DNA of 64,000 nucleotides from Bacteroidia bacterium (GTDB lineage: Bacteria > Bacteroidota > Bacteroidia > M30B66): positions 1,801,239 to 1,865,238 of the forward strand of contig OZ257142.1 in assembly GCA_965279035.1 (NCBI GenBank). Reading direction: 5' to 3'. Shown here piece after piece: positions 28,987 through 61,952 of the stretch. Within the stretch, counting starts at the first letter, position 1. The number at the start of each line of letters is the position of its first letter. The notes beneath the pieces were generated by a model. That model saw nothing but the letters and a program-made list of their open reading frames with translations, was not told the DNA's origin and did no database searches. The position numbers and the translations under genes are program-made.

Positions 28987-28989
28987 TTG

Positions 28990-29670: not shown

Positions 29671-29674
29671 TTTA

Positions 29675-38060: not shown

Positions 38061-38084
38061 GCAAGGGGCGCAAGATAGTATTTT

Positions 38085-38435: not shown

Positions 38436-38445
38436 TAGACTTGCA

Positions 38446-38643: not shown

Positions 38644-39624
38644 ATGAAGAAGAACTTTATTGGCATTGATGTGTCAAAATTAACGCTGGATGTTTATTTA
38701 CATAATCAATCTCAGCACAACGTCTTTAGCAATGATATCGATGGTTATACACTGATGCTTGCTTGGTTAAAGCAGTTGAAAGTGAGTGTAAAATCGATGG
38801 CCATTTGCTTTGAGCATACGGGTATTTATAGCGAGGATTTATCTGTGTTTTTGAGTGAAAAGAAGATCTGTTTTTACATGGAATCCTCCTTAAACATTAA
38901 GTATTCTATTGGACTTCAGCGAGGCAAAAATGATAAGATAGACTCCCAAAGAATCGCAAATTTCATTGCATTACATGCAGAACAGCTTAGCCCAACGGTA
39001 CTATCAAAGAGTGCTGTAGCGCAGCTGAGAAAGCTCTTGAGTATGCGTTCGCATCTGGAAAAAGAGAAGATAGGCATCAAAAACAGACTTAAGAACTCAT
39101 CAAAAACCACTGGTGTAGATATAGTTTTTCAAATCGAAACGGATCTGTTAAAGACCTTTAACGATAAACTTAAACTGGTAGAAGAGGAAATCAAATCATT
39201 GATAAAGTCAGATGATAATCTTCGTCAAATCGACGAATTAGTTCAATCTATAAAAGGAGTTGGACCAGTGTCGAGTTGGTATTTAATCGCCACAACAAAT
39301 GGCTTTGAATACTTCGACAATGCTCGTCAATATGCATGTTATAGTGGAATAGCTCCATTCGAAAAATCATCAGGAACATCCATAAAAGGGAAAACACAAA
39401 CCGATAGAAGATCAAATCGAAAAATCAATGGAGTATTAACAATGGCGGCGCGTTCGGCAGTATTAAATAACACCGAAATGAGAGAATATATGGAGCGTAA
39501 AATCCAGGAAGGAAAACATTATAATTGTGCACTCAATGCAGTCAAAAACAAACTTGTATCAAGAGTATTTGCTGTCGTAAAAAGAAAAACACCCTATGTT
39601 GATCTAAAAAAATACGCTGCATAG
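38644..39624 (+). CDS. IS110-family transposase
   Basis: N-terminal FIGIDVSKLTLDVY (DEDD/RuvC-like N-domain). The C-terminal KGVGPVSSWYLIATTNGF...SGIAPFEKSSGTS block is typical of IS110/IS116/IS902 transposases. Confidence 0.85.
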   Translation: MKKNFIGIDVSKLTLDVYLHNQSQHNVFSNDIDGYTLMLAWLKQLKVSVKSMAICFEHTGIYSEDLSVFLSEKKICFYMESSLNIKYSIGLQRGKNDKIDSQRIANFIALHAEQLSPTVLSKSAVAQLRKLLSMRSHLEKEKIGIKNRLKNSSKTTGVDIVFQIETDLLKTFNDKLKLVEEEIKSLIKSDDNLRQIDELVQSIKGVGPVSSWYLIATTNGFEYFDNARQYACYSGIAPFEKSSGTSIKGKTQTDRRSNRKINGVLTMAARSAVLNNTEMREYMERKIQEGKHYNCALNAVKNKLVSRVFAVVKRKTPYVDLKKYAA

Positions 39625-40094
39625 ACTTGCATAAGTCCTAGAATACACACCAACCCACCAGCACATCAGATAAGTAAGATTCTTACTCTCCTCATCTTAT
39701 CATCCCTAAAATTTCCGGACTTGGGGGCTTCATTACAAAATCCATTTTCGTTTAAAGAGTGTAGAGATAAAGTTTTCAACAGAGCTAGTGTTATTTTGAC
39801 ACAATTAATTGGCAATGTGGGTGCTGATAGGCCTTTTATGTGGCTTATTCTGTTGAAAATCAAGGATTCTGTAAATTTGGTATTTCCATCTGATTGGTCT
39901 ATTTTTATGCTCCCTAAATTTCCCTTAGAAGTACCCTAATCTGTTTTGCTTTGAAAAATTTTGACGTGCTTTCTCGCTTCTCAACCCAAAACACTGCATT
40001 TTCTGTGTGGTGTAAGAAAAACAGCAAGTCTGTAACGTTTCCGATTTCATCCCGTATGCTTAGTGTTTTGAAAACTACCCTTTTCCCCGCATCC

Positions 40095-43000
40095 ATGAAG
40101 AACTTCAACTCCACCACCATGATGCTTACCCGTATTCGTTTAACCTGCTTGTTAGTACTTGCCGGTTTATCTGCTTTTGCGCAGACTACCGTTACCTACA
40201 CCCAGCAACAGGCAAACTACTACACCACTTTTACTGCCGGTACTGCTGGTAACTTCAACCAAGGCTCTTTCCAACTTGGGATGTATGCCAATGCTGGAGG
40301 TACAAAACAAGTAGCATCATTTCGTAAATTTCGAACGGATGGTTCGGGTTCATCTACCGGTGATCGGAGTATGAAAGTCGGTGATCAGTTTGTAGTCACC
40401 TTATCGGCTACTCGTGCCTATGGTAGAATCGGTTTCTCCCTTTTGGCTTCTCCAAGTGCAACTACTGCTTGGACCGATCGGGAAAACAATTATGCGATGA
40501 GCATGAATTTGGACGGAAATTCCGGAGCTTGGGGTAACTGGTATGCGAAGTACAATGGCGGTGGAACTTCTGCAGGATCGGCAAACGTAGCTGGACAACA
40601 AACTACCTATAAAAATTTCACTTTCACTCTTACGCTTACAGCTCCAGATCGGATGAATGCCACCTGGACAGATGGAACAACAACTAGTAATCTCTACGAT
40701 ATTCAATTAAATACTTCCAACCCGATTACCGACTATTGCGTGTTTTTGGAAGACGACTGGGATGGCGGAGCAAATCGAAACATCTACTGGGGATTAGGAG
40801 CAGTAGGAACTCAACACACATTAACCAATACAGGTAACTGTACTATTGGACAAAGCAATTCTTCCTTTACAACTTCAGGAGTAATTTTTAACGGACTCGA
40901 TGCCAATAGCGCATCCACCAATAGCTTAAACAACAACTTAGTAAAAAGCGGAACTGGTACACTCACCTTGAGCGGCGCTAATACATATGTTGGAACTACA
41001 ACAGTAAATGGTGGTTCACTTCTATTAGGTGCATCCGGTGTGATTCCTGATGCAAGTAATGTAACTCTTAATGGTGGAACCTTGAGTTCTGGATCCGGTG
41101 CAGGTTTTACAGAAGTCATGGGGACTTTGAACCTTAGCGCCAATTCAACCTTAGCTCTCGGAACAGGAGCACATACAATCACTTTTGCTAATTCCAGTGC
41201 TGTTTCTTGGACAGCCAATACGATCCTTACTGTTACTGGTTGGACAGGTACCAATAATGGAAATTCATCTGGAACAGCAGGGAAGCTGTTTGTTGGAAAT
41301 GGCTTTGGCGGATTGACAGGTATTCAATTATCAAGAATTCGATTTAATATCAGCGGTACTTTGTATGGAGCCATGCAATTGAGTACAGGTGAAGTGGTAC
41401 CTACAGGTGGAACGGTTTTATACTATGGTGGTGCAAATGGTACTTGGACTGGAAGTTTATGGAGTGTTAATGAAGGTGGACCATATACTACAGCATGGAC
41501 ATCTGGTTGTCATGCTGTAATGAATTTAACTTCAGGAGCAAATACTCTTACTGGAGCTACTACTAACATTGCTGCAATTACTGTAAATGCTGCGGTAACA
41601 TATGCAATAGGAGGTACTTGGAGTATGGGTCCTGCAGGTGCTGCCGTTGCTCCAATATACGTAGATAATGGGGTAACATTTTCAATGCTTGGTCAGGGAA
41701 TTTCAGTTACAGCTGGAAATGGTATAATAAAAAATGGTTCAGGGATTTTACAAGGCGCCAATGGTAATAATTACTTAGGTGGATTTACAATTAACAATGG
41801 AATGTTTGCCATTGGTGGAATTAATTCCATGGGAAATGGTGGAACTTTAAATATTAATGGTGGAACATTAGCCGGAACTGCAAATCGTGATTTAACAGGA
41901 AAATTTAGTTCAATAACTATTGGTGGAGATTTTACATTAGGTTCATCTACTTCTCCTGCATCAGGTACTGCAACATTAACTTTTACAAATAATACAGCTT
42001 TAGGAAGTTCTGTTACACGTACAATCACATTAGGTGGAACTGGTTTAATTACTTGGAATGGTATCATCAGTGGTACTAGTTCTAACTTAACGATTGGTGC
42101 TACTGCAGCGGGTTCTATGTCGCTTGGTGGAGTTAATACATTTGGAGGAAACTTTACAGTCAATGCAGCATCAAGTACCATTACACTCGCAGCAGCAAAT
42201 TCATATGGTGGAGGAACAGTTGTTAATGCTGGTACATTAAAACTTACTATTTCTTCTGCAATCCCATCAGGTTCGGCATTAAGTTTTGCGAATACATCAG
42301 GAGCAATTCTCGATTTAACTACGACTGCTTTAACACACACTGTTGCCTCTCTTTCGGGTGGTGGCTCAACTGGTGGTAATATCAGCTTTGGCGCTCCAGC
42401 TACAGGCGAAGTGTTAACAATCAATCAATCAGGTAACACAACGTATTCAGGTTTAATTAGTGGTAACGGTTCAATCACCAAAACAGGTGCTGGAATCTTA
42501 ACCTTTGGTCATACTGCTAATACTTATACAGGTTCTACAACCATTTCGGCTGGAGAGCTTCGCTTGAACCCAAGCACAACCACAGCTACATTTGCTTCAC
42601 CCGTAATTTTAAGTGGTGGTAAATTGAGCACTACTTCGATTACAGCTGCTACAACTTTCACTAGCTCATCAACCTTAAAACTTAACGCAAGCAGCAGCAT
42701 CGACTTAGGTTCGAATGCGCATTCCTTGAAATTTGCTGCTTCGAACGGTGTTGCTTGGACAGGTGCAACTACCTTAACAATCAATGGTTGGACAGGTACA
42801 GGAGGAGCAACAGGAACTGCTGGTAAAATCTTTTTCGGTTCTGCAGTAGGAACACTTACAGGAACTCAATTAGGGCAAATCACATTTACTGGTTATACGG
42901 GAACACCTATCCTTTTATCAACAGGAGAATTGGTTCCTCCAGTTCCGTCAGTTACCTATACATGGACTGGTGGTGCAGGAGATTTTCTTTGGACAAGTCC

Positions 43001-46000
43001 AGCCAACTGGAGTCCTGGAACAAGTACAGCAGGCGTTGGTCCAACAGCTACCGACAATGTTGTTATTCCGGTTGCAACAAACATGTTAAACTTAAACGTT
43101 GCTAAAACGGCAGCGAATTTCACATTAAGTGGAACAGGAAGTTTCCAAGTAGGAGCATCAGGCTCGCTTACAGTAACAGGTACATTAACGAATTCAAGTT
43201 CGGCTACACCAACATTTAACTGTGGTTCAACATTCACAGTAAGCAGTGCTGGACAAACCATCCCTGCATGGAATTACGGAAACTTGGTATTGAGTGGTAC
43301 AACAGCCACATTAGCAAGTTCAGGAACGATTGGTATTTGCGGAAGTTACACACCTTCTGCTACTACCACTGTAACAGGAAGTACTGTTGATTTCAATGGT
43401 TCTACCGCTCAAAGTATTTTAACCAATGCAGCGGTATTCAATAATTTAACGATTTCGAATACGGCATCAACTGTAACATCGGGAGTAAACGTAACGGTAA
43501 ACGGAACAGGAACGATTAATTCAAGTGCTACCTTTATTCAATCGGCAGGAACTTTTGCAGCCAATGCAGTTGCCACAACGGTTAATGGTACATTACGAGT
43601 TACAAGTACAGGGGCAGCAACAGGTTCGGCAGCGAACTTAATTTTCAGCTCTACTGGAACTTATGATCATAATCGGGATGGAGGAGCAATTCCATCGGCT
43701 TCTTGGAATGCAACTTCTAATTGTAATATCACCGGTATTAACGCAACATTGTGTACAAACACAGCTCAAACATTTGGTAACTTCTTATGGAATTGTCCTT
43801 CATCGTCGACAACATTTAACTTTGGAGCTGCATTAATGACCAATGTTGTAGGGCTTTGTGAGATAAGAAATACGAATGGAGCTACAGGTACACTGGGTTT
43901 TGATGCAACTAGAACTTGGACTGGAAATTTATCGATCACAGGTGGTAGAATTGCATTAACAAGAACGGGTTCAGCAACAAGTTCTTCTTTAACTGTCAAT
44001 AATTTTACATTAGATAATACAAGCGATGCCAACGCACGATTTACACTTGGAGGAAATGCTTCTAATGTGGCATCAACTCTCACTGTAAATGGAACCTTCA
44101 CTATTACATTGGGACAAAATGCGGCTGTCTCTCCAATTATAGTTTACGGAGGATTAGCAGGAACTGAGAATGTTAATGTAGTAGGTAATTTCTCTCAAAC
44201 GGGAGCTTTCACAGGATCTATAGGAGGTTCTTCAAGCAGAAACTTCAATTTTACGGGTGCTGGAACAAGAACAATATCTTGGGCAAGTTCAACTTTATGG
44301 GGTTCTGTTGCTGTTAATGTAAATAGTCCAGCCATTATAGATATTGCAAACTATGTATTAAATAACACGGGTACATTCACACTAAACTCTGGAGCAGGTA
44401 TCATCACAGCCAATGTCAATGGATTAACCACTTCGGGAGCAACAGGATCAATTCAATCGTCTGGTTCACGTACGTATACTTCAGGTGCTAACTATACCTA
44501 TAATGGTACTGCGTCACAAGCAACTGGAAATGGATTAAATCAAAATACACCAACCAATGTTAATATTGATAATACTGCAGGAGTAACGCTTTCTGGAGCA
44601 ACAACCATAAGCGGTGTATTAACTTTGACTAACGGGAAGTTGGATATTGGTGCAAATGATTTGACTTTGAGTAGTGTCGGATTAGGAAGTGTAACGGGAG
44701 CGAGTTCATCCAAATACATTATTACTTCTGGAGCGGGACAATTACTAAGAGCAATTTCAACTGGAGGATATCCTTTAACCTATACCTACCCGGTTGGAGA
44801 TGCAAGCAACTATACACCAGCAGCATTCAATTTTACTTCTGGCGGAACTGCTCGCAATATTGGAGTACGAGTAGTAAATACAGTACATCCGAGCAATACT
44901 CCTTCAACCGATTATGCCAACCGTTATTGGGCTGTAAGCAATAGTAATGCAGCTGGCACTTTTGCTTATACTCCTACGTTTACGATTGTTGATCCAGGAG
45001 ATATTGGAGCTGGTTCGTATGCCAACATGAAAATAAATCGTTGGAATGGTACTTCTTGGACTCAATATGATACATCACCCAATACTACGTTTAGCACTCC
45101 TGATTTTACCTTAACTTCTACACTTATTCAGTTCACAATTGTCAATGGTGGTACTAATGAATTTGCTATTCGCTTAAACAATCCAGCAATCAATTACACT
45201 TGGAACGGAGGTACAAGTTCATCGTGGACTACAACAACCAACTGGACACCGAATGGAACTCCAGGTGTGAATGATAATATTACCATTCCAGATGTTGCAT
45301 CATATACCAATGAATTGATTGTAAGTGGTTCAAAAACAGTAACCGATTTCACAGTAAGCGCAAATGGAAAGTATACTTTAGGTGCTGCCAGTTCATTAAA
45401 TGTTGCAGGAAACTATACCTATAGCAGTTCAACTGCTCCAACATTTGATTGTACTAGCACATTGAGTTTGAGTTCAGCTTCAAGTCAAACTGTACCAGCA
45501 CATAATTATGGTCATTTAAATTTAAGTGGGGGAGATCGCGTTTTAGCAAGCAGTGGAACGATAGGAATTTGCGGAAATTATACTCCAAGCAGTGGTGTTA
45601 CAACCATAACAGGAAGCACTGTTGATTTCAATGGTACATCGGCACAAACGATCATTACCAATGCGGCATCATTTAATAATCTAACCATTTCCAATACTTC
45701 ATCTACAGTAACTGCCAGTGTGAATGTTACAATCAATGGAACTGCTACGATTAACTCGAGCGCAACGTATGTTCAATCGGCCAATACATTAACCATCGCA
45801 GCAGCAACAACCACCAATGTAAATGGAACCTTACGTAATTCGGGAGGAACTATTACTAACAGTGGCACTTTAAACTTCAATGCATCGTCTATATATGACC
45901 ATGCACGCGATGGTGGAGCAGTACCAACAGCTACTTGGAATGCTACTTCAAACTGTAATATCACCGGTATTAATGCAACATTATGTACAAACACAGCTCA

Positions 46001-55000: not shown

Positions 55001-58000
55001 ATATACGTATACGGCATCTGGTTTTACCAGCTTAGGTATTTTTGAACCGGGAATTCAAAATGCATTTTTACCAATTCCTATCATAACAGGCTATTCACCT
55101 ACATCTGCTTATACTGGTGAAGTGATAACCATTACAGGTTCTAACTTAAATACATTAACCTCCGTAACGATAGGTGGTACAACTGCTGTTCTTACTACAC
55201 CAGCACCAACATCATCAACTGCTTATTATATTGTTGGTAGCGGAACATCAGGGAATGTTGTAGCAACGAATGCTTTTGGCTCTTTTACAGCTTCAACACC
55301 ATTTACTTACTTAGGATATATTACCAATAACCCAAGCGACTGGAATACTGGTTCTACATGGTTAGGTGGAAATGTTCCAATTGCGAATGCAACTACAACT
55401 GTAAATCACGCGATTACGATTAATGCAGCTGTTGTTAATTCTCCAAATTCGATTACGATCAACTCTACAAAATCAATCACTTTTGGTGCTAGTGGAGGAG
55501 TAACTGTTAATAATACACTCACTAACGGTGGTACAATCGATATGACCTCAGGAGGTGTTCTTACCATGGCTTCTGGTTCAACATTCGCCAATGGTTCTTC
55601 AACCTTTACTGGTGGAACAGGAACCGTTGTATTTGCTGGAACAGGAACTGTTACGAGCGCAAGTGGAGTTCCATTTAATAATGTAACGTTGAATGGTTCT
55701 GTCAATCCAAGTGCTGGTAGTTCAATTGCCGGAACACTTCGAGTTAATCAAAGTGGTTCTATCAATACCAATGCGTTAAGTTATGGTGCTGCATCTACCT
55801 TATTATATAATGGAACTTCAGCTCAAACACCAAATGCATTAGAGTTCCCATCTTCAAGCGGTCCTGTTAATTTCACAGCAAACAATCCAAGCAATGTGTA
55901 TCTGCCTTTTAGCAGAACAATTTCCGGTGATTTTAGAATATTGACTGGTACAGTTAGCAACCTGAGTGGTTCGGCCGTTACTTTAACAATGAGCGGTTCG
56001 AATGCAACTCTTGAAGTTACAGGTACTCTTCAAGGTACTGATGTTGGAGCTGGTAACGACATAAATCTAATCGTAAGTGGTGCTCTTACCTCCATTACTG
56101 GTAGCAACGTTACAACCTTGAAAGTCCTCAATGCAACCGTAAATAGTGGTTCAACCTTAGCACTTGCTCGAAGCAATGTAGAGGTTCGCTACGGAGCATT
56201 CAACATCAATGGTACTGGTACACTTCGTATTGATGCCAATGGAAATGTTGCTGCATTTGATGCAAATAGTCGTGTTCCAATTTATGCTTCTACAGCAAAC
56301 TTGGTTTACAATAGCGGTGGATCTTATGGTCGTTATGTAGAATGGTCAACATTGAGCGGTCCTGCCGGATATCCTGGAAATGTGATAATCCAAAATGGTA
56401 CAACGCTGAATATTGGAACACCTTCGACCGATCTTGGAATCTATAGCAACTTGAGCTTAGGTCAAACTGGATCTGCTGGTTCATTAAACATGCAATCAAC
56501 ACCACAAGGAATTACTGTTGGTGGAGATGTAACAATTGGTAGCAATACTGGAACAAGTACTTTAACATTATCTACGAATGCATCAAGTCCGGCTCTACGT
56601 TTATCAGGAAACTGGAATAGAACTTCGAATGGTGCTTTTGTAGGAACTGGTTCTAATGGACGAGGTGTTTTCTTCGAAGGTGGAAATGCTCAAACGATCA
56701 CTGCACCATCTACAGAAACATTTGAGTATTTATTGATCAATAAAACTTCAGGAACTAATGTAACATTGAACAGTCCAGTAGTTGTGAATGCAACACTAAC
56801 ATTTACTTCTGGAACAGTAACATTAGGAAGTAATGATTTAACAGCAGCAACTCAAACAGGAGGAAATGTTACTTCGTATGCAATCACCAATGGTGCAGGT
56901 AAATTGAAACTGAATGTTAACAATACCAATATTTTCTTCCCTATTGGACCGAATTCAACTACGTATGCTCCAGCTACATTGAATCAGGCTTCAACAGCGG
57001 AAGTGATAGGAGTAAGTGTTGCAAATGCACCTTCATACACACCTGCAGTAAACGATAACACTCAAATGGTAACCTTAGAGTGGAAAATGAATGAGTCGGT
57101 TGCTGGATCGAATTCTTTGATGACTCAATTCCAGTGGGCATCTTCTTCCGAAGCAGGTAGCTTTATTCGTGCAAATGGTGTTTTCCATGGTACATGGAAT
57201 GGCACTACTTACACAGTTCGTCCAGCAAGTGCTACAACAGGATCGAATCCTTACATTTCTACTTCAACTGTAAACTATACATCAACACTTAGCAATCAAA
57301 ACTTTGTGGTTGGAAACATCAGTGGAATCATTGGTTGTTTCTCTACTGTTGCAAATGGAATTTGGAATGATGCAAATACTTGGTCAAGTGGAGTAATACC
57401 TCCAGGTGGCTCAAGTGTATGTATCAATAATACCATTACAGTTGGTCCGTCCGATCCAGATGTTACTGCTTTAGGAGTTACCATTAATGCTTCTGGTTCA
57501 ATTAACTTGGATGTTGCAAGAACATTGACCATTTTAACTACTGGTGCTTTAGTAAACAACTCCGGTTCAAATCAGAATTTTGGTTTAGGTAGTGTATATG
57601 CAAATGGAGTTTTATCTATTGCTGGAGCAAATGTTTTCCTTCTTCCTAATTTAACATTAAACGGAAATACTACAGTAACAACATCTCCAACGATTTTATC
57701 AAACCTAACCTTGAATTCAGGTGCATTCTTAACAGCATCACCTACTTACGGTTCTAACGCAACCTTGATTTATAATACAGGTGGAAGTTACACTGTGAGC
57801 AATGAGTGGACTGGTAATTCGGCTACTCCGGGATTAGGTATACCTAAAAACGTAACGCTTACAGGAACTACCTTGAACATGCCTACTAGCGATAGAGGAA
57901 TTGGAGGAAACCTTAGCATTAGCAGCGGTACGGTGAATATGAATGGTACTTCGGGCGATTTATATGTTGGTGGAAATTGGACGCGTGCTTCATTTGCTAC

Positions 58001-61000
58001 GTTCAATCCAAATGGTCGTGCTGTGTTCTTTAACGGTTCTACCAACCAAACCATTTCAGTTACTTCAAGCGGTACTGAAACATTCTCTTACTTATTAGTA
58101 GCTAAATCGGGAGGTAACTTGATTTTAGATAATACGAATCCGACGAATGTTACAGTAAGTGCTTCTTCAGGAAATGTGTTACAACTCAACTCCGGAACTA
58201 CCATTGATTTAAATGGTAACACCATGTCACTCACTGGTACATCTGGAAATGTGAGCCTGCTTGGTGGAGCAAATTCAGTTATAGGTTCGGCTAATTCTGT
58301 ATTCGCAATTTCAGGAGGTTTGAAAACTATTGTACCTTCAGGTGGAGCTACACTTAGCTTTGGATCGAATGTGAAAGTTGCTTTAAGTAATGGAATCAAT
58401 TTCGGTTCATCCACATCAACCATAAACGGAACATTACAAATTGCTTTAGGTGGATACGTTAGTGGAAATGCACCTACTTATGCAAGTGGTTCAACTCTAC
58501 GTTATTTCTCTGGTAGCACTTATGGCCGCGGTTTAGAATGGAGCACGAATTCAGGACCAGGTTATCCATACCATGTGACTGTTGATCAAAATGGAACAGT
58601 TACAACAGCCGACTTAAGTACAGGATCTGCTACTTGTCAACTAGCTGGAGACCTCACCTTGAATAATGGAGGAAATATGACAATGGGAGCAATGACGAGT
58701 CCATTGATCATTCTTGGTAATGCTGTTATAGGAGGAGCTTCAAGTGGAACATTAACATTAAGTTCTGCTGCTGGTGGAGATGTTCGTATTGCTGGTGATT
58801 TAACCCGCAATGCAGGAGGAACGCTCACTCAAAACGGAAGAGAAGTTGAAATGAACGGTACAACTGTTCAAAATATCAACGGAGTAACCAGCTTTGCATA
58901 TCTAGCAATCAACAATTCAGGTGCTTCTGTTAAGTTAAATGCAAACTCTACCATTAGTAATCGTTTGCGTTTAACGAATGGTTCATTCGATTTAAATGGA
59001 CAAACTTGCACTATGGCGAATGGTTCTAAAATCCTACGGATTAATGGAACGATGACAGCTTCTCCAAGTGTTGCCCCTGGCGATTTGTATGATTTGGAAT
59101 ATCAAGCAAGTGTGGCAAGTAGTTTCGAGTTTATTTCAGCCAATGATGCTGTTCGCGATTTGATCATCACTACAGGTAATACATTAACACTAGGTGCTAG
59201 TCGCACATTCAACCGAGATTTAACATTGAGCGGTGGTGATTTGAATTTGGCAACTTATACACTTACTGCTAGAGGAAATGCTGTGGCACCTTCATTCTCT
59301 GGTAGCATTACAGTAAGCGGTGGTGGTACACGAACTATTACTGGTGCTGCAGGTTCTGGTTTTGATTTCACTGGATTTGGTGCAAATAACCCAACCAAAT
59401 ACACTAAAACAGTATCAACGTTTGGAGGAACACTTCTTAATTTTGATTCGAATGTATTGGTACGCATTGGAGATGGTTCAGTTGACTTTGGATCAGGAAG
59501 TCCAACTACCATTAACGGAGTCCTTCAAGTATTGCTTGGTGGTTCTGTAGGACAAATTTTGAATCCATGTTATTACGGATCAAACTCGATTTTGAGATTT
59601 GCTAATACAGTAGATTATCAAGTTGGAGTAAATGATAAAACTTGGGCAAGTGGTTCTATTTCTTCAGGTAATCCTGGTATTCCATACAATGTGGAGGTAA
59701 ACGATAACGGAACTGATCTTCAGTTACAGGATACACGTGCATTGAGAAATAATCTAGCAATCACCGATGGTACATTTACTTTAACTCCAGCATACACCAG
59801 TACGTTCAATATTGGTGGTAACTGGACACGTTCGGGTGCTACTAGCGCATTTAATCATAACAGCAAAAAAGTGGTATTTGACAAACAAGCCGCTGGTAAT
59901 CAAACAATCACTGTTAGCTCAGGAGTTACTGCCGAAACATTCTACGACCTAGAAGTTTCTCCTGTAACTGGTAATTTGCAAGCTGGATCTTCATCCGCCT
60001 TGAATGTGTTGAATACGCTCAATTTCGTAAGTGGTAAATTGGATATTGGAGCAAATCGCTTAACAATTGGAACCGCATCAGCAAACGGTAGCATAACAAA
60101 TGCAAGCAGTTCGATGTATGTCATTTCGAATGCAACTGCGGGTGGTGGTAATATTCGCCGCTACACAAATACAAACGCAACATTCGACTTCCCAGTAGGT
60201 GATGCTGGTGGATATAATCCGGTTTCTTTAACATTGAGCAATGGTGGACAAGCTGGTGCTTACATTACTACTACAGTAGTTTCAGGAATGCATCCAAATA
60301 TGACGGCTCCTGCACCAACGATTTACATTGCACGTTACTGGTCAGTAGAACCAACTGGATTAGCTACGAGTCCTGTTTACGACATCAACTATACTTACAT
60401 TACTGGTGATGAAGTAGGCGTAGGAACCATGTACCCTGTTAAATACAGTACAGCAACAGCAACTCCAGGATGGCAAAGTTGTCCAGGCTCTTTAGCTGCT
60501 GCCGTTACAGGAACTGCAGGTGGTAATAACGTTCCAACAAAAACGTTCTCATGGACTGGTTTAACAACCTTCTCCGATTTCTCTGGAGCTGGTGATGGTT
60601 CACCTCTTCCAATTGAATTGTTAAACTTTACTGCTACTCCAAAAGGCGAAGTTGTGGTGTTAGATTGGTCAACTGCTTCAGAGATTAACAATGATTACTT
60701 CACGTTAGAACGTTCTGATGATCTTGTTAAAATTGAATCAGTTGGTAAAGTAGCTGGAGCTGGAAACAGCACGAATATTCTCAATTACACGTATTCTGAT
60801 AAAATGCCTTTGAGTGGAGTAAGCTATTACAGATTACGCCAAACCGATTTTAACGGAAGTACTGAAGTGAGTGATTGGGTTCCAGTTACATTTAACAAAG
60901 GCAATACGGCTTTAGATTTTGGTTTCTTCTTAACTAATCGTGGTGAGAACTTCCTTCAATTTGGAATTGCCAATACAGCACCTATCACTTCATTAGAAGT

Positions 61001-61157
61001 TATTGATGCAACAGGTAGAGTGATTGTGAATGAGGTGTTTGAAACAAGAAACAGCAATACAAGCAAAACGCTTTACATGCCTGAAATTGCACCTGGTGTA
61101 TATTTCCTTCGTGTTCAAAGTGGCGGACAACAGTTAATTCGCAAGTTTGGCTGGTAA
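40095..61157 (+). CDS. Giant (~7000 aa) T9SS-secreted beta-helical repeat surface protein (adhesin-like)
   Basis: One uninterrupted 21.2-kb frame. The track start (TTG at 39951) is in-frame upstream; the likely start is 40095 or 40119 ahead of the signal peptide MMLTRIRLTCLLVLAGLSAFAQT. There are dozens of autotransporter-associated beta-strand-type repeats (e.g. LTLSGANTYVGTTTVNGGSLLLG). Recurring ~700-1500 aa modules begin NW(T/N)P..G.PG..DN..IP and contain YP(V/L)GD...Y(T/S)P...RYW. It ends with a pre-CTD Ig-like module (ELLNFTATPKGEVVVLDWSTASEINNDYFTLERS) and a type-A Por secretion tail (GVYFLRVQSGGQQLIRKF). Confidence 0.85.
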   Translation: MKNFNSTTMMLTRIRLTCLLVLAGLSAFAQTTVTYTQQQANYYTTFTAGTAGNFNQGSFQLGMYANAGGTKQVASFRKFRTDGSGSSTGDRSMKVGDQFVVTLSATRAYGRIGFSLLASPSATTAWTDRENNYAMSMNLDGNSGAWGNWYAKYNGGGTSAGSANVAGQQTTYKNFTFTLTLTAPDRMNATWTDGTTTSNLYDIQLNTSNPITDYCVFLEDDWDGGANRNIYWGLGAVGTQHTLTNTGNCTIGQSNSSFTTSGVIFNGLDANSASTNSLNNNLVKSGTGTLTLSGANTYVGTTTVNGGSLLLGASGVIPDASNVTLNGGTLSSGSGAGFTEVMGTLNLSANSTLALGTGAHTITFANSSAVSWTANTILTVTGWTGTNNGNSSGTAGKLFVGNGFGGLTGIQLSRIRFNISGTLYGAMQLSTGEVVPTGGTVLYYGGANGTWTGSLWSVNEGGPYTTAWTSGCHAVMNLTSGANTLTGATTNIAAITVNAAVTYAIGGTWSMGPAGAAVAPIYVDNGVTFSMLGQGISVTAGNGIIKNGSGILQGANGNNYLGGFTINNGMFAIGGINSMGNGGTLNINGGTLAGTANRDLTGKFSSITIGGDFTLGSSTSPASGTATLTFTNNTALGSSVTRTITLGGTGLITWNGIISGTSSNLTIGATAAGSMSLGGVNTFGGNFTVNAASSTITLAAANSYGGGTVVNAGTLKLTISSAIPSGSALSFANTSGAILDLTTTALTHTVASLSGGGSTGGNISFGAPATGEVLTINQSGNTTYSGLISGNGSITKTGAGILTFGHTANTYTGSTTISAGELRLNPSTTTATFASPVILSGGKLSTTSITAATTFTSSSTLKLNASSSIDLGSNAHSLKFAASNGVAWTGATTLTINGWTGTGGATGTAGKIFFGSAVGTLTGTQLGQITFTGYTGTPILLSTGELVPPVPSVTYTWTGGAGDFLWTSPANWSPGTSTAGVGPTATDNVVIPVATNMLNLNVAKTAANFTLSGTGSFQVGASGSLTVTGTLTNSSSATPTFNCGSTFTVSSAGQTIPAWNYGNLVLSGTTATLASSGTIGICGSYTPSATTTVTGSTVDFNGSTAQSILTNAAVFNNLTISNTASTVTSGVNVTVNGTGTINSSATFIQSAGTFAANAVATTVNGTLRVTSTGAATGSAANLIFSSTGTYDHNRDGGAIPSASWNATSNCNITGINATLCTNTAQTFGNFLWNCPSSSTTFNFGAALMTNVVGLCEIRNTNGATGTLGFDATRTWTGNLSITGGRIALTRTGSATSSSLTVNNFTLDNTSDANARFTLGGNASNVASTLTVNGTFTITLGQNAAVSPIIVYGGLAGTENVNVVGNFSQTGAFTGSIGGSSSRNFNFTGAGTRTISWASSTLWGSVAVNVNSPAIIDIANYVLNNTGTFTLNSGAGIITANVNGLTTSGATGSIQSSGSRTYTSGANYTYNGTASQATGNGLNQNTPTNVNIDNTAGVTLSGATTISGVLTLTNGKLDIGANDLTLSSVGLGSVTGASSSKYIITSGAGQLLRAISTGGYPLTYTYPVGDASNYTPAAFNFTSGGTARNIGVRVVNTVHPSNTPSTDYANRYWAVSNSNAAGTFAYTPTFTIVDPGDIGAGSYANMKINRWNGTSWTQYDTSPNTTFSTPDFTLTSTLIQFTIVNGGTNEFAIRLNNPAINYTWNGGTSSSWTTTTNWTPNGTPGVNDNITIPDVASYTNELIVSGSKTVTDFTVSANGKYTLGAASSLNVAGNYTYSSSTAPTFDCTSTLSLSSASSQTVPAHNYGHLNLSGGDRVLASSGTIGICGNYTPSSGVTTITGSTVDFNGTSAQTIITNAASFNNLTISNTSSTVTASVNVTINGTATINSSATYVQSANTLTIAAATTTNVNGTLRNSGGTITNSGTLNFNASSIYDHARDGGAVPTATWNATSNCNITGINATLCTNTAQTFGNFLWNCPSSSTSFNFGAALMTNVVGLCEIRNTNGATGTLGFDATRTWTGNLSITGGRIALTRTGSATSSSLTVNNFTLDNTSDANARFTIGGSGSNVSAVLTTNGNFTMVMGQNAAATPVIVYGGILGTENIIVKGNFSHSGSGTGTISRSGTGGTSETFTFTPTGAQTFTSANASLFGLCDVVLNGTGSLAFDATSIIANTTGATPTVGRFTLASGATIITANTGGLSLTGSTGSIQSGGTRTYNAAANYTYNGSSAQITGLGLVQANNLTINNAAGVTLSAGTTITNNVNLSNGVLTLNTADLIINNAATITGTFGPTAMIATTGSASRSSGRVMRMFPSGTSSGSFTFPLGDITGTAEYSPITISLSYTGATLPPYVAYKVKDAQNPSDPSITNYISRYWEVTSNLYSATGISFTTTSTYVTADIVGTETLIEPNRLSQSGVDIGTWYEDATGSAGSNTLNGATLTSANDFNDDDLTGRLTVPIYFRSNVATGNFESPGSWLVSTDPAFLAPVGTTTTASPTYSNCDGIEIMSGHNITIAAAAGIDQATVNSGGTLTIGAGATLVVYNGTGTDLQVNGSLVNQSSIAVTLAGTLVIGSTGLYNHNINSGTIPSATWTAGSNCLISGMTTTAPSGLGQAFSDFTFNSTLSASNSLSSALTNVGRDLTINGTGGFTLGLTSTTALALTVGRDLNVTSGFLTLVTGANTNTVSLTVSGDLKISGNGGFSIAGGSSSGAGSTTLTVNGLVNNTSSSGTSFVMSGASKIVTATIANGYSQSSGTASMSQGSGATTLTIATGGFTLSGTGSFNMNNGGTGGATMNITSGDFTQSAGNFNLCASSTGPAYINQNNAANGMVLSGGTMNVLLGNSVTYANRPIITLAGSFSQSGSHAFDWGGGSVSNTASPYPAELRVAKDFSRAGTSTINCSSGSVTNKGLILFNGTQNISSLSTGTFNKTETQISGTSTLNNDFTMTSGANTVFTINSGGRLNTNNYVVSAPGGTPTFTLSSGGTISLTAASGTSNSTGNIQINAPTYNAGGNYLFEGSTSGMVTGPYLPASVTGNITINNSNGVTLSNNLTIGAASVLTLTSGVFDLGTSNLILTSGATISNYAISRYIKTSSTGTIRQTLATNTPVLFPVGNSGYNPITLSQSGASDNYTLRMIDGAISGLSPNDVTKTINRNWSFTRTSSSIVSITASSISYNVGEENNATNFNAGTQPYYGLYNGALWVQATATQGAQTFTSANAVSSSTSTSFNVAMGKDDAFINPSTTYTWVGNGAAGDWTDPNNWNPSTSLAGPLPGDNIIINAPGTASNNLNLNISKTVTDVTFNGTGVMALGASGSLTINGTVTYGGSFSATLNCSSTINYANTTALTIPPFNYGNLVNANASVRTWAASATTGICGTLTAGIGSTFTAGAGSTVDYNGTGAQTVVNLNYNNLTISQNRGGATVTLASGTIDVAGTFNPSLSNNSISYSGNTINFSGSAGQGIPAFTYNNITSSNLARTWANSGVIDVNGTFAIPSSGVQTVTGSTVRYSSTAAGTITLTSFSSSATPRHYNNLEIVGGASSIWNLASGFNLGCAGNFDLTGAGTFTVAVNATANSMTVDGNLTVSGSGNLIIANTATATLVNNLTVTGNTTISNGLLTCIGASSSTTVQGNLSTTDLTISGSGAVNLDAASNTASAAITVNGNMSVTSTSASAVNFGSGTNNANNVFNLKGNLSKSGTGSFNCTGTFNSTTGFFFNNGSGTQQFSYAGTAMTAANINVSAASTLQLMSSFNLGSAGASSLNVVGTGVLIMGTNVVTAGNSANLFSLSSTGTLKTANTSGVIGSIAGFTFANCTFASGAIFEFNGAAAQNTGVSTFTGITTASFYTITWTGTTSLTLDKSWSLNTLNFTNSGLIYLGTNNLTITSAGSITGGSFSASKMIVTDNTGTLVRSVTSVGVGLPFTWPIGENTGTTEYSPVTIASLASGGIAGSIGFRVVDGIQPNMSPATIYASRYWPCTVSGYNATYTLGSSTFTYVPGDIVVGPESSFKGDVYNSTTSLWTELASSSAVSSVLTIASGLNGTVMPTGGSSATYDIAPRVDVPTYYQTVASGNWTTLGTWEISTDPAFVSPAGSPAVSVPTNLNSAGIFIRNGHTVTVNTSLSGDDVTIYSGGTLQLTGNTFTLANGSAATDLTVNSGGTLLCASATNNSLVVASGASMQVNGLFMQAGSASPDLTNSGTITIGATGTYEHARNAGIIPTCTWTAGSLCLLSAVTNNVPSGLAQSFHHFTVNTTLTASVSTSGNLQTILGDFNLTTNHASFAFSLSAGTSYSLNVSGDMTINNGILDCANSGAGPNSVTVTGTTTMTGANSQITKKGPAAMTWNFNGNYTQNSGTLEFNAGGSSNTTVNFRGDVVMNGPVQRTNGGTHLMNFLKASGVQTLSQGTPITTAQAIVWAVGNGTTTNTVQMLTDVNVGTSGSTTFTVNNAATLDFQDKTLYGTNAPFSMGATATLKMGSQYGITTAAVGATSGNLQTQVAGRVVQATGTFIYSGTVNQVTGNLLPSTLTGTGKLTISNTGTIGNNTVTLTTTPTTTPTFNLVSGLFAAGVGQTLNITSGGTVNATGGDFVTGSTAGFINFPGTGTWTGSCNPYNVNISGGVNFGAGTVTIQNSGTLKINAGGFVSTNAPFYNANSNLQYNVTSGTTYGRGLEWYQSAGRGYPGNVRISNNNTLDPANGGGNINGSAAVNTVLNCAGSLTIDAGSSMYMDFGGNNMQVNLNILGSLNISGNLSSSGTAGKDIYVGRDWNYNTGASYNANTRAVFLNGSVNQNVGGTASTTFPYLVLNNSAGATLTISQTVSNTLTLTNGKLTLGNFDLNSNGTISGASTSNYVVTNGTGRLKQTVAASNVAFPVGNSTYNPITLNNTGTSDVYGVIAKDGAAGSESDNTKIVLRNWDINEASAGGSNLAITTQWNAPVAQTGQEASNFVRADASRWIGNYTGGVWTQNASSLAGSDPYTYTASGFTSLGIFEPGIQNAFLPIPIITGYSPTSAYTGEVITITGSNLNTLTSVTIGGTTAVLTTPAPTSSTAYYIVGSGTSGNVVATNAFGSFTASTPFTYLGYITNNPSDWNTGSTWLGGNVPIANATTTVNHAITINAAVVNSPNSITINSTKSITFGASGGVTVNNTLTNGGTIDMTSGGVLTMASGSTFANGSSTFTGGTGTVVFAGTGTVTSASGVPFNNVTLNGSVNPSAGSSIAGTLRVNQSGSINTNALSYGAASTLLYNGTSAQTPNALEFPSSSGPVNFTANNPSNVYLPFSRTISGDFRILTGTVSNLSGSAVTLTMSGSNATLEVTGTLQGTDVGAGNDINLIVSGALTSITGSNVTTLKVLNATVNSGSTLALARSNVEVRYGAFNINGTGTLRIDANGNVAAFDANSRVPIYASTANLVYNSGGSYGRYVEWSTLSGPAGYPGNVIIQNGTTLNIGTPSTDLGIYSNLSLGQTGSAGSLNMQSTPQGITVGGDVTIGSNTGTSTLTLSTNASSPALRLSGNWNRTSNGAFVGTGSNGRGVFFEGGNAQTITAPSTETFEYLLINKTSGTNVTLNSPVVVNATLTFTSGTVTLGSNDLTAATQTGGNVTSYAITNGAGKLKLNVNNTNIFFPIGPNSTTYAPATLNQASTAEVIGVSVANAPSYTPAVNDNTQMVTLEWKMNESVAGSNSLMTQFQWASSSEAGSFIRANGVFHGTWNGTTYTVRPASATTGSNPYISTSTVNYTSTLSNQNFVVGNISGIIGCFSTVANGIWNDANTWSSGVIPPGGSSVCINNTITVGPSDPDVTALGVTINASGSINLDVARTLTILTTGALVNNSGSNQNFGLGSVYANGVLSIAGANVFLLPNLTLNGNTTVTTSPTILSNLTLNSGAFLTASPTYGSNATLIYNTGGSYTVSNEWTGNSATPGLGIPKNVTLTGTTLNMPTSDRGIGGNLSISSGTVNMNGTSGDLYVGGNWTRASFATFNPNGRAVFFNGSTNQTISVTSSGTETFSYLLVAKSGGNLILDNTNPTNVTVSASSGNVLQLNSGTTIDLNGNTMSLTGTSGNVSLLGGANSVIGSANSVFAISGGLKTIVPSGGATLSFGSNVKVALSNGINFGSSTSTINGTLQIALGGYVSGNAPTYASGSTLRYFSGSTYGRGLEWSTNSGPGYPYHVTVDQNGTVTTADLSTGSATCQLAGDLTLNNGGNMTMGAMTSPLIILGNAVIGGASSGTLTLSSAAGGDVRIAGDLTRNAGGTLTQNGREVEMNGTTVQNINGVTSFAYLAINNSGASVKLNANSTISNRLRLTNGSFDLNGQTCTMANGSKILRINGTMTASPSVAPGDLYDLEYQASVASSFEFISANDAVRDLIITTGNTLTLGASRTFNRDLTLSGGDLNLATYTLTARGNAVAPSFSGSITVSGGGTRTITGAAGSGFDFTGFGANNPTKYTKTVSTFGGTLLNFDSNVLVRIGDGSVDFGSGSPTTINGVLQVLLGGSVGQILNPCYYGSNSILRFANTVDYQVGVNDKTWASGSISSGNPGIPYNVEVNDNGTDLQLQDTRALRNNLAITDGTFTLTPAYTSTFNIGGNWTRSGATSAFNHNSKKVVFDKQAAGNQTITVSSGVTAETFYDLEVSPVTGNLQAGSSSALNVLNTLNFVSGKLDIGANRLTIGTASANGSITNASSSMYVISNATAGGGNIRRYTNTNATFDFPVGDAGGYNPVSLTLSNGGQAGAYITTTVVSGMHPNMTAPAPTIYIARYWSVEPTGLATSPVYDINYTYITGDEVGVGTMYPVKYSTATATPGWQSCPGSLAAAVTGTAGGNNVPTKTFSWTGLTTFSDFSGAGDGSPLPIELLNFTATPKGEVVVLDWSTASEINNDYFTLERSDDLVKIESVGKVAGAGNSTNILNYTYSDKMPLSGVSYYRLRQTDFNGSTEVSDWVPVTFNKGNTALDFGFFLTNRGENFLQFGIANTAPITSLEVIDATGRVIVNEVFETRNSNTSKTLYMPEIAPGVYFLRVQSGGQQLIRKFGW
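43690..44060 (+). repeat. Intragenic repeat copy 1, ~90% identical to 45915-46285
   Basis: The nucleotide stretch encoding ASWNATSNCNITGINATLCTNTAQTFGNFLWNCPSSST(T/S)FNFGAALMTNVVGLCEIRNTNGATGTLGFDATRTWTGNLSITGGRIALTRTGSATSSSLTVNNFTLDNTSDANARFT is repeated almost verbatim. Confidence 0.85.
45915..46285 (+). repeat. Intragenic repeat copy 2
   Basis: See copy 1. Only scattered synonymous or conservative differences. Confidence 0.85.
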
Positions 61158-61176: not shown

Positions 61177-61209
61177 GAAAAAGCCGTCCTAGTTTGGACG
61201 GCTTTTTTT
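61177..61209 (+). terminator. Rho-independent terminator of the giant gene
   Basis: aaaaagccgtcc-tagtttg-ggacggcttttttt, a 9-bp GC-rich stem followed by a T-run, 20 bp after the stop codon. Confidence 0.8.
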
Positions 61210-61388: not shown

Positions 61389-61952
61389 TTATTTGATTCC
61401 TTCAAATTCAAACTGAAACTTAGTGGCAAATTTTTCCTGTGCTACACTTAGTTTTTGATTTAAGATTTCCTCTTGAGAGCGAACACGTTCTACAATTAGA
61501 TTAAGCTTAGTTATATCCCCATCGGAAGCTGTATCCCCCTTTAAAAAAATATCAATCATTTCTTTGTATTCATGATGGAATACATTGTTATAAAACTGCA
61601 GTAAATCAATCGCCGAGTTTCTTAGTAAGGAATCACCTTCATAGTCGCTTAGTTGATTGAGCATTGCTAATGAAGAATCGGAACGAGTGACCAATGCATG
61701 ATATTGAAGCAAAACTTCTTGTTCTGTTCCATTATCGAAAGCATCGGTCAATTTAACCATGTTTCGGATGGTTGCATTCTGATGATCAACAATAAAATCG
61801 TTGTATTCTACTGGGGTGTAGAAAATTATTTCACCCGCATGAGCTCTTTTAGGGGAGCAGGAGGGAAGTAAAAGGACGATACAAACGCAACAAAACAGCG
61901 ATGAAGCAACCTTGATCATGAATTCAACATCTTCGATGGCAAAACTACTCAA
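61389..61952 (-). CDS. Hypothetical lipoprotein
   Basis: Signal peptide with LLPSC lipobox (likely start at MIKVASS...). No family recognised. Confidence 0.4.
   Translation of the reverse strand: MSSFAIEDVEFMIKVASSLFCCVCIVLLLPSCSPKRAHAGEIIFYTPVEYNDFIVDHQNATIRNMVKLTDAFDNGTEQEVLLQYHALVTRSDSSLAMLNQLSDYEGDSLLRNSAIDLLQFYNNVFHHEYKEMIDIFLKGDTASDGDITKLNLIVERVRSQEEILNQKLSVAQEKFATKFQFEFEGIK

What the first reader, a model, noticed from the sequence alone, without database searches (positions are those of the whole stretch)
39951..61157. Single 21.2-kb ORF encoding a ~7000-aa beta-helical T9SS surface protein
This is among the largest bacterial proteins. The frame is maintained over 21 kb, which argues for strong selection. 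The architecture is signal peptide, long parallel-beta-helix-type repeats, recurrent ~700-1500 aa modules with conserved NW.P..G.PG..DN..IP and RYW motifs, an Ig-like pre-CTD, and a type-A T9SS tail. That resembles SprB/RemA-class gliding adhesins, yet it uses a type-A rather than type-B CTD and has no adjacent sprF-like gene. The module family with the Y..RYW signature is not one I recognise.
Basis: partly seen in the sequence, partly recalled or inferred. Interest (0 to 1): 0.6.

Follow-up and report, generated by a model that had tools for sequence, protein, structure and literature searches.

The report
Giant T9SS-secreted beta-helix surface fibre
This is a real, intact 21-kb gene for a ~700-kDa rod-like surface protein of an uncultured Bacteroidia bacterium, probably a long adhesin with a lectin-like tip; it is one of thousands of similar, unstudied giants rather than a one-off.

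Summary
Window 39951-61157 (+) is one open frame of 7068 codons. The other five frames carry 209-637 stops, so the chance probability is about 1e-205. The likely start is ATG 40095-40122, in front of a Sec signal peptide cleaved AFA|Q.

The layout is: signal peptide, a ~230-aa N-terminal beta-sandwich head (galectin/ConA-like fold, low-confidence model), PATR beta-helix, seven super-modules, one IPT/TIG domain, an FN3-like pre-CTD domain and a type A T9SS CTD. Each super-module is a W-rich N-cap, a beta-helix and a ~165-aa 'FPxG...RYW' beta-sandwich.

The 'RYW' domain is in neither Pfam nor NCBIfam, but it is common. It hits 3997 protein clusters, mostly 2000-7650-aa giants built from the same shuffled modules.

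A syntenic ortholog exists. The repeats are diverged at DNA level and under purifying selection, so neither a pseudogene nor an assembly artefact is indicated.

It is not SprB-like: there are no SprB repeats and no type B CTD. A type A CTD without sprF is normal, since RemA is type A.

Verdict: a new member of a widespread but uncharacterised kind. Interest is moderate to low.

The parts
39951..61157 (+). Longest ORF (7068 codons plus stop). The probable CDS starts at 40095-40122.
   Evidence: no internal stop, against 209-637 stops in the other frames.
40095..40184 (+). Sec signal peptide (MKNFNSTTMMLTRIRLTCLLVLAGLSAFA|Q), with Gln at +1 (Bacteroidetes Q-rule).
   Evidence: Read from the sequence. 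All five homologs also place ..[AS]Q|(T/L)T directly before the domain. Q-rule: PMC5837995.
40185..40880 (+). N-terminal head domain (aa 79-~310): an all-beta domain with a galectin/ConA-like fold at low confidence. It is rare (5 homologs). In two of them it forms a 306-aa protein of signal peptide + this domain + type A CTD.
40929..42950 (+). PATR / autotransporter-associated beta-strand-repeat beta-helix. It contains two homologous blocks, aa 327-500 and aa 839-1007.
   Evidence: PF12951 at 70 bits with 4 stretches. TIGR02601 at 61 bits. Self-similarity.
42957..45200 (+). Super-module 1: N-cap YTW.G..W..NW.P, beta-helix, and RYW beta-sandwich at 44697-45200.
45195..47489 (+). Super-module 2, a tandem duplicate of module 1 with a 2232-nt offset. 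RYW domain at 46971-47489.
   Evidence: up to 100% aa and 90-93% nt identity over ~100 codons, with 19 synonymous and 4 non-synonymous differences.
47496..49820 (+). Super-module 3: N-cap GNF..GSW.VSTDP.F, with an RNW variant of the sandwich at 49329-49820.
49824..52274 (+). Super-module 4: N-cap YTW.G..W..NW.P, with the RYW domain at 51765-52274.
   Evidence: Collinear with P0130 at 53-71% identity.
52296..55070 (+). Super-module 5: N-cap GNW..GTW.ISTDP.F, with an RNW variant at 54594-55070.
55077..55310 (+). IPT/TIG domain (aa ~5043-5120).
   Evidence: PF01833 at 31.3 bits, above the gathering score of 20.9.
55338..57350 (+). Super-module 6: G8-like N-cap DWN..STW..G.VP, with an LEW variant of the sandwich at 56847-57350.
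   Evidence: Collinear with P0128 at 61-79% identity.
57360..60605 (+). Super-module 7: G8-like N-cap, three ~240-aa beta-helix sub-repeats carrying an 'L.Y..G..Y...EW...G.P' motif, and the RYW domain at 60099-60605. Its last part is modelled as a right-handed beta-helix.
60609..60902 (+). FN3/Ig-like pre-CTD domain (PLPIELL.F...W.TASE.NN.YF..ERS...YYRL.Q.D.(D/N)G). It is more strongly conserved than the CTD itself.
60918..61154 (+). Type A T9SS C-terminal sorting domain.
61177..61208 (+). Intrinsic-terminator-like hairpin (13-bp stem followed by a T run), 20 nt after the stop codon.

Best explanation
The gene encodes a ~700-kDa fibrous cell-surface protein of a T9SS-bearing, uncultured Bacteroidia bacterium.

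Proposed mechanism:
1. The precursor is exported by Sec, and its signal peptide is cut at AFA|Q.
2. The C-terminal type A CTD is recognised by the T9SS translocon and the PorV shuttle.
3. The CTD is removed. The new C-terminus, next to the conserved FN3-like domain, is either attached to the cell surface or the protein is released.
4. The body is a rod, roughly 100-150 nm long on my own estimate. It consists of right-handed beta-helix segments, each with a W-rich N-cap and each followed by a ~165-aa beta-sandwich (the 'RYW' domain).
5. The rod holds a rare N-terminal galectin/ConA-like head at the end farthest from the cell. The head, and possibly the interspersed sandwiches, bind a ligand, most likely a glycan on a particle, a surface or another cell.

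What is shown here: an intact ORF under purifying selection, the signal peptide, PATR repeats, the beta-helix, FN3 and CTD folds, the type A CTD, modular mosaicism and the family distribution.

What is inferred: secretion and anchoring, the orientation with the head distal, the adhesin function and glycan binding.
For: Intact ORF.

Selection: in the conserved core of the M1/M2 duplicate there are 19 synonymous and 4 non-synonymous differences in 100 codons. A positional ortholog, L081, has the same two downstream genes at 68% and 62% identity. It stays open for about 3000 codons at 42-68% identity.

Secretion signals: signal peptide and type A CTD. The host has a T9SS: a PorP/SprF family gene and four other CTD-bearing ORFs (three type A, one type B) lie in the same window.

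No catalytic family was found anywhere in the 7068 aa. The conserved residues of the RYW domain are G, P, Y, T and W, which points to a structural core rather than an active site.

Relatives keep the C-terminal stalk but carry different heads and different module counts, as expected for diversifying adhesins.
Against: There is no experimental data of any kind.

The head model is low confidence (pLDDT 52, alignment of 6 sequences). Its galectin-like fold is therefore only a lead, and the galectin sugar-binding residues were not identified.

Beta-helix is demonstrated only for aa 327-1000 (by family) and aa ~6480-6720 (by model). For aa 4576-6480 it follows from homology to the modelled part. 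For aa 1000-4500 it is inferred from composition and repeat pattern.

Beta-helices are also the scaffold of many polysaccharide lyases and hydrolases, so an enzymatic role cannot be excluded.

Type A cargo can be released rather than anchored, as with AmyB and partly RemA (PMC12618676).

An IS110 element sits 326 bp upstream of the ORF, so expression is not guaranteed.
Confidence: 0.6

Rival explanations
1. It is a secreted or surface-displayed polysaccharide-degrading enzyme, or an enzyme array. On this reading the beta-helix modules are catalytic, like pectate lyases, tailspike depolymerases or G8-type proteins, and the sandwiches act as carbohydrate-binding modules.
Against: No pectate-lyase, Beta_helix, NosD, GH or PL family reaches even E 0.1. 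The best structural matches are non-enzymatic adhesin passengers. No conserved acidic or basic residues stand out in the repeated domain. The G8 hits score 13 bits against a gathering score of 22.9.
Confidence: 0.15
2. It is a gliding-motility adhesin of the SprB/RemA class, loaded on the gliding track and propelled along the cell.
For: It is a giant T9SS substrate of SprB-like size. RemA is a type A CTD lectin adhesin (PMC12618676). A lectin-like head is predicted here.
Against: There are no SprB repeats, no type B CTD and no sprF, sprC or sprD neighbours. The SprB type B CTD is what targets cargo to the gliding machinery: cargo given a type A CTD stayed immobile or was released (PMC12618676). 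No RemA-type lectin family hit was found.
Confidence: 0.1
3. The reading frame is an artefact or a decaying gene. Either repeat collapse or expansion in assembly created it, or it is a pseudogene that happens to be open.
For: The gene is highly repetitive. Short-read relatives are visibly troubled: L081 has a 100-N scaffold gap inside the gene, and L082 has an in-frame TAG. An IS110 element lies just upstream.
Against: Only one DNA repeat exceeds 90% identity (300 nt, spacing 2232 nt). All other repeats are strongly diverged. The two copies differ mainly at synonymous sites. The window's genes sit on a 4,200,666-bp contig, which suggests a high-contiguity assembly. There are no stops in 7068 codons, with P about 1e-205. 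A syntenic ortholog is conserved at 42-68% identity. A terminator hairpin follows the stop codon.
Confidence: 0.04
4. It is a contact-dependent or polymorphic toxin delivery protein: a long beta-helical stick carrying an effector.
For: The beta-helical stick resembles TPS and CdiA-type passengers (the HxuA hit). Large polymorphic toxins exist in Bacteroidetes (PMC7073777, listed).
Against: No toxin, TANFOR or immunity family was detected. The C-terminus is FN3 + CTD rather than a variable toxin domain. The variable part in relatives is the N-terminal head. No small immunity-like gene is conserved next to it, apart from two convergent syntenic ORFs.
Confidence: 0.05

Closest known systems
Uncharacterised giant 'T9SS type A sorting domain-containing proteins' of Bacteroidota (e.g. 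P0126 5063 aa, P0127 5480 aa, P0128 5935 aa, P0130 5332 aa, P0136 7481 aa; locus L003 3515 aa; positional ortholog L081)
   Same: They share the same RYW sandwich (2-8 copies), the same N-caps and helix modules, the same FN3-like pre-CTD domain and the same type A CTD. Long stretches are collinear at 50-80% identity.
   Different: Module number and order differ, so the proteins are mosaics. The N-terminal heads differ too: the head of this protein has only 5 detectable homologs. None of these proteins is characterised, and Pfam covers almost nothing in them.
RemA of Flavobacterium johnsoniae (mobile cell-surface lectin, T9SS type A CTD)
   Same: Both are T9SS cargo with a type A CTD handled by PorV and without a SprF partner (PMC12618676). 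A lectin-type binding domain is predicted here.
   Different: RemA is far smaller, and it is not built of PATR/beta-helix modules (own knowledge). No RemA-type lectin family hit was found here, and no evidence links this protein to gliding.
SprB of Flavobacterium johnsoniae (about 6500 aa gliding adhesin; size from own knowledge)
   Same: Both are giant, repetitive, T9SS-secreted filamentous surface proteins of similar mass.
   Different: SprB has SprB repeats, a type B CTD and the cognate SprF shuttle (PMC9143113; PMC12618676). None of these is present here.
Type V autotransporter / TPS beta-helical adhesins (Fap2, Hap, Vag8, HxuA) and PATR-repeat passengers
   Different: The secretion route is different. 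This protein has a C-terminal T9SS CTD instead of a beta-barrel translocator, and no autotransporter barrel family hit was found. Here the helices are interrupted by beta-sandwich domains.
Giant RTX (T1SS) adhesins with extender domains and distal ligand-binding domains (e.g. the Aeromonas hydrophila 5047-aa adhesin, PMC12077191, listed)
   Same: The overall design is the same: one end anchored at the cell, a long repetitive extender, and lectin-like ligand-binding domains at or near the far end.
   Different: The extender fold differs (Ig-like beads there, beta-helix here). The secretion system and polarity differ too: T1SS adhesins are retained by their N-terminus, whereas this protein would be held by its C-terminus.

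Membership tests
T9SS type A CTD cargo | C-terminal type A sorting domain (TIGR04183 / PF18962, Ig-like 7-strand sandwich) | tested here: met
T9SS type A CTD cargo | N-terminal Sec signal peptide | tested here: met
   An n-h-c region with AFA|Q was read from the sequence. The cleavage context is conserved in homologs. It fits the Q-rule (PMC5837995). No dedicated signal-peptide predictor was available.
T9SS type A CTD cargo | Host encodes a T9SS | tested here: met
   A PorP/SprF family gene lies at 12919-13866 (TIGR03519, 157 bits). Four other CTD-bearing ORFs (three type A, one type B) are in the window. Core genes (sprA, porV, porU, gldKLMN) are not in the window and were not checked.
T9SS type A CTD cargo | Secretion depends on T9SS/PorV; the CTD is cleaved by PorU | not testable with these tools
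   This needs genetics or proteomics.
SprB-class gliding adhesin | Type B CTD (TIGR04131 / PF13585 CHU_C) | tested here: not met
   No hit in the giant protein. PF13585 was readily detected in the neighbouring 326-aa ORF, so the search was capable of finding it.
SprB-class gliding adhesin | SprB repeats | tested here: not met
   Pfam scans of the whole protein, and of ten pieces at E up to 5, list no SprB repeat family.
SprB-class gliding adhesin | Adjacent cognate PorP/SprF-like shuttle gene | tested here: not met
   The neighbours are an IS110 transposase, a CHU_C protein, CorA, a 187-aa ORF and a 270-aa type A protein. The only PorP/SprF gene is 26 kb away.
RemA-like lectin adhesin | Recognisable lectin domain | tested here: inconclusive
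PATR / autotransporter-associated beta-strand repeat proteins | PATR repeats (PF12951 / TIGR02601) | tested here: met
   PF12951 at 70.4 bits with 4 stretches. TIGR02601 at 61.4 bits. These lie in aa 330-873 only.
Type V autotransporter | C-terminal beta-barrel translocator domain | tested here: not met
   No autotransporter barrel family was found. The C-terminus is FN3-like + T9SS CTD.
G8 domain proteins | PF10162 above the gathering score | tested here: inconclusive
   Two matches of 13-13.6 bits, against a gathering score of 22.9, fall at module N-caps. Some relatives carry a precomputed G8 hit.
'RYW' beta-sandwich domain family (uncurated, defined here by alignment A4) | ~165-aa domain with Y.(T).G.G.L.R ... 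FP(V/I)G...Y.P ... T.Y..RYW, following a beta-helix | tested here: met
   Seven copies in this protein. The profile finds 3997 clusters at E<=1e-3 and 1741 at E<=1e-10. It is modelled as a 12-13-strand all-beta domain, mostly at pLDDT above 90 (about 79-98 per 10-residue block). It has no Pfam or NCBIfam model.

The most novel reading that the evidence does not exclude
The N-cap + beta-helix + 'RYW' sandwich super-module, together with the strongly conserved FN3-like pre-CTD domain, may define a large protein family that nobody has curated or studied. Its members would be T9SS-displayed fibres built by module shuffling. They would carry interchangeable N-terminal binding heads, here a rare galectin-like one that also exists as a free-standing T9SS protein. 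This would be a Bacteroidota counterpart of T5SS and T1SS giant adhesins, and it may set attachment specificity for particles, prey or hosts in uncultured Bacteroidia.
Probability: 0.4. Interest if true: 0.45.

Novelty: new member of a known kind. Interest (0 to 1): 0.3.

Why it matters
Giant surface proteins are costly: this gene is about 0.5% of a 4.2-Mb genome. They usually decide what a bacterium sticks to.

Three domain families in this protein have no Pfam or NCBIfam model, although two of them are common. These are the RYW sandwich (~4000 clusters), the FN3-like pre-CTD domain (at least 592 loci in species-representative genomes) and the rare N-terminal head. Curating them would improve annotation of thousands of 'hypothetical' T9SS cargo proteins.

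The strong conservation of the pre-CTD domain hints at a role in T9SS processing or anchoring that could be tested. For this particular gene, however, the general class (a giant T9SS type A beta-helical surface protein) is already abundant in databases. The finding is therefore representative rather than surprising.

Tried and rejected
The 5000-aa query timed out, so a 589-aa C-terminal query was used instead.
- Identifying the source genome failed. The genome-contig scan gave at best 48-52% identity. Exact look-ups show that window proteins lie on a 4,200,666-bp NCBI/ENA contig. However, the look-up of encoding contigs had no record for four window proteins. CorA relatives are named only 'Bacteroidia bacterium', at 57-60% identity.
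- PDB sequence searches with aa 320-1585 and aa 2500-4885 found nothing meaningful. The same was true of the head.
- A search for conserved neighbours among 80 related genome loci found none. Only the close ortholog L081 is syntenic.
- The sigma-70 promoter scan upstream was at chance level. A single Bacteroidetes-type TAnnTTTG (TAAATTTG at 39872) is present, but that motif occurs 0.6 times per kb per strand in the window, so it is not evidence.
In the multi-domain model it is an all-beta sandwich, but its closest structural family remains undetermined.
- SprB membership, autotransporter membership, the polymorphic-toxin reading and the artefact/pseudogene reading were considered and rejected (see the rival explanations and the membership tests).

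Full report
OBSERVATION

The window contains one ORF at 39951..61157 on the + strand, 7068 codons long, exactly as reported. In the same 21.2 kb the other five frames hold 209-637 stop codons. From base composition, the chance of 7068 stop-free codons is about 1e-205. GC at the third codon position is 0.24, similar to other genes in the window.

The listed TTG start is only the longest possible one. A typical Sec signal peptide, MKNFNSTTMMLTRIRLTCLLVLAGLSAFA|QTT, begins at ATG 40095, with alternative starts at 40119 and 40122. The start of an 81%-identical N-terminal ortholog aligns close to M57/M58. Glutamine at +1 fits the Bacteroidetes Q-rule (PMC5837995). The mature chain is 6990 aa, 707 kDa, pI 5.1, and rich in T, G, S and N. 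A 13-bp GC-rich hairpin followed by a T run lies 20 nt after the stop codon.

ANATOMY

Pfam and NCBIfam recognise very little of the protein:
- PATR / autotransporter-associated beta-strand repeats in aa 330-873 (PF12951 at 70 bits, TIGR02601 at 61 bits).
- A type A T9SS sorting domain at the C-terminus. TIGR04183 scores 30 bits against a cut-off of 23. PF18962 scores 29 against 27 when the tail is scanned alone.

Self-comparison and motif anchoring define the rest of the layout.
- After a ~230-aa head (aa 79-~310) and about 670 aa of PATR helix come seven super-modules of 755-1086 aa.
- Each super-module starts with a tryptophan-rich N-cap, of which there are three variants. YTW.G..W..NW.P occurs at aa 1003, 1749 and 3292. 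GN(W/F)...W.(I/V)S.DP.F occurs at aa 2516 and 4116. A G8-like (D/I)WN...TW..G..P occurs at aa 5130 and 5804.
- Each super-module continues as a Gly/Thr/Asn-rich repeat region.
- Each ends with a ~165-aa domain carrying Y..T.G.G.L.R ... FP(V/I)G ... Y.P ... T.Y..RYW. Three of the seven copies have RNW or LEW in place of RYW.
It is an approximate description of the first N-cap variant.

STRUCTURE

Foldseek returns tandem-FN3 proteins and PorU. A sequence profile also hits solved T9SS CTDs (8glk_D, 8glj_D, 5jvk_A).

The C-terminal part therefore reads beta-helix, then RYW sandwich (12-13 strands, mostly at pLDDT above 90), then FN3-like domain, then CTD.

Beta-helix is shown directly for aa ~6480-6720. 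For aa 330-1000 it follows from family membership. For aa 4576-6480 it follows from homology to the modelled segment. For aa 1000-4500 it is an inference.

RELATIVES

The C-terminal 589 aa have 534 database relatives. The best is 67% identical. All come from Bacteroidia, Flavobacteriales or Cryomorphaceae metagenome bins, and all are unnamed or called 'T9SS type A sorting domain-containing protein'.

A scan of species-representative genomes found at least 592 loci through two peptide patterns of the pre-CTD domain. Several of these ORFs exceed 3100-3800 aa. Only 9 of the 80 retrieved loci contain the RYW domain.

A profile of the seven internal RYW copies was searched against 1.84 billion representative proteins. 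It finds 3997 proteins at E<=1e-3 and 1741 at E<=1e-10. The best hits are 2000-7651-aa proteins with 2-8 copies.

Four of these hits (5063-5935 aa) are collinear mosaics of the same modules:
- The last ~1450 aa align at 50-80% identity with three of them.
- aa 3300-4800 align with P0130 at 53-71%.
- aa 4876-5600 align with P0128 at 61-79%.
- The heads differ completely.

The head of this protein has only five homologs. Two of them are 306-aa proteins made of signal peptide + head + type A CTD. Pfam covers almost nothing in these relatives either.

IS THE GENE REAL?

Only one DNA repeat exceeds 90% identity: 300 nt with a spacing of 2232 nt, which is the module 1 / module 2 duplicate. All other repeats are far more diverged. 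In the conserved core of that duplicate, 100 codons show 19 synonymous and 4 non-synonymous differences. The copies are therefore distinct and under purifying selection.

Several window proteins are exact members of the public collection, on a 4,200,666-bp contig. This suggests a high-contiguity assembly.

A positional ortholog exists on an ENA scaffold (L081). It is open from the contig start to its stop codon, apart from a 100-N scaffold gap. It is 42-68% identical to this protein, and it is followed by the same two convergent genes at 68% and 62% identity. A pseudogene or an assembly artefact is therefore unlikely.

CONTEXT

The gene stands alone.
- Upstream lie an IS110-family transposase (38644-39624), a 326-aa ORF with a type B (CHU_C) CTD, and CorA.
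- Downstream lie a 187-aa ORF and a 270-aa type A CTD protein, both on the opposite strand.
- The only PorP/SprF family gene is 26 kb away, next to an IS4 transposase.
- No neighbour is conserved across the wider family.

MECHANISM

My commitment, at about 0.6 confidence, is the following sequence. Sec exports the precursor and the signal peptide is cleaved. The T9SS and PorV recognise the type A CTD, and the CTD is removed. The protein is then attached to the cell surface or released. The result is a beta-helical rod, interrupted by sandwich domains, that presents a lectin-like head far from the cell as an adhesin.

The rod length of 100-150 nm is my own estimate. It assumes about 23 residues and 0.48 nm per coil, plus the sandwich domains.

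The T9SS steps follow from established knowledge of type A cargo (PMC12618676; PMC9143113; PMC10202324). They are not tested here.

The rivals are an enzymatic beta-helix array (0.15), a gliding adhesin (0.1), a toxin-delivery stick (0.05) and an artefact or pseudogene (0.04).

COMPARISON WITH KNOWN FAMILIES

It is a member of the T9SS type A cargo class and of the PATR-repeat class. It is not an SprB-class protein: no type B CTD, no SprB repeats and no sprF neighbour were found, and all three were tested. It is not an autotransporter, because it has no barrel domain.

It is not odd. [quoted passage not shown]

It is also not 'among the largest' bacterial proteins. Relatives of 7481 and 7651 aa exist, and predicted bacterial proteins reach 85,804 aa (10.1101/2023.11.21.568195).

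VERDICT

This is a new member of a widespread but uncharacterised kind of giant T9SS surface protein.

The useful residue of the finding is three uncurated domain families: the RYW sandwich, the highly conserved FN3-like pre-CTD domain and the rare galectin-like head. The evidence for module shuffling among paralogous giants is also of some value.

Interest is 0.3.

Noticed in passing
window 38644-39624 (+): An IS110-family transposase (PF01548 + PF02371) lies 326 bp upstream of the giant ORF. Its exact protein sequence belongs to a 9-member cluster seen on several metagenome contigs, so the element looks active and widespread. The N-terminal ortholog L082 has no such element upstream.
   Followed up: partly
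window 38061-38640: The intergenic stretch between the CHU_C gene and the IS110 element holds several perfect short palindromes (CCCGATTGCAATCGGG, CCCCGGATTTCAATCCGGGG, ATCCGATAGCTATCGGAT). It also holds repeated GATGTGCTAGTTTT-like motifs. These may be REP-like elements or IS110 target or end structures.
   Followed up: no
window 37080-38060 (-): A 326-aa ORF carries a type B T9SS CTD (PF13585 CHU_C, 49.9 bits) but has no adjacent PorP/SprF-like gene. It is an 'orphan' type B cargo.
   Followed up: no
window 12919-13866 (-) and 14034-15272 (+): A PorP/SprF family T9SS membrane protein gene (TIGR03519, 157 bits) lies directly beside an IS4-family transposase. No type B cargo gene is next to it, so the IS may have separated a shuttle-cargo pair.
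   Followed up: no
window 18906-22763 (-): A second large T9SS type A cargo of 1285 aa carries PKD x4, CUB, SdrD_B, DUF7619 and Por_Secre_tail. It is unrelated in architecture to the giant protein.
   Followed up: no
window 61389-61952 (-) and 62037-62849 (-); L081 9374-9910 and 10029-10853: The two convergent downstream genes are a 187-aa ORF with no family hit and a 270-aa type A CTD protein. Both are syntenic with the ortholog locus L081 (68% and 62% identity). They are the only neighbours conserved with the giant gene.
   Followed up: partly
window 60609-60902; alignment A2: The FN3-like domain just before the CTD (PLPIELL.F ... W.TASE.NN.YF..ERS ... YYRLKQTDFDG) is much more conserved than the CTD itself. 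Two of its peptide patterns found at least 592 loci in species-representative genomes. Yet it has no Pfam or NCBIfam model. It may have a role in T9SS processing or anchoring.
   Followed up: partly
L082 2213-2215 (JGI 3300032248 contig): The 74-81%-identical N-terminal ortholog has an in-frame TAG after 376 codons, and the same frame continues with homologous sequence. This is either a sequencing error or a pseudogenised copy. It also lacks the first PATR block.
   Followed up: partly
L081 6264-6363: The positional ortholog on a short-read scaffold has a 100-N gap inside the repeat region, and its gene was called as a 919-aa fragment. This shows how such giants get fragmented in short-read assemblies and in protein databases.
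   Followed up: yes
window 28001-30000: G+C drops locally to 0.28, against 0.34-0.42 elsewhere. The stretch covers an ORF-poor region and small ORFs with no family hit.
   Followed up: no
P0123, P0124 (306 aa): The head domain of the giant protein also exists as a free-standing small T9SS cargo: signal peptide + domain + type A CTD.
   Followed up: partly
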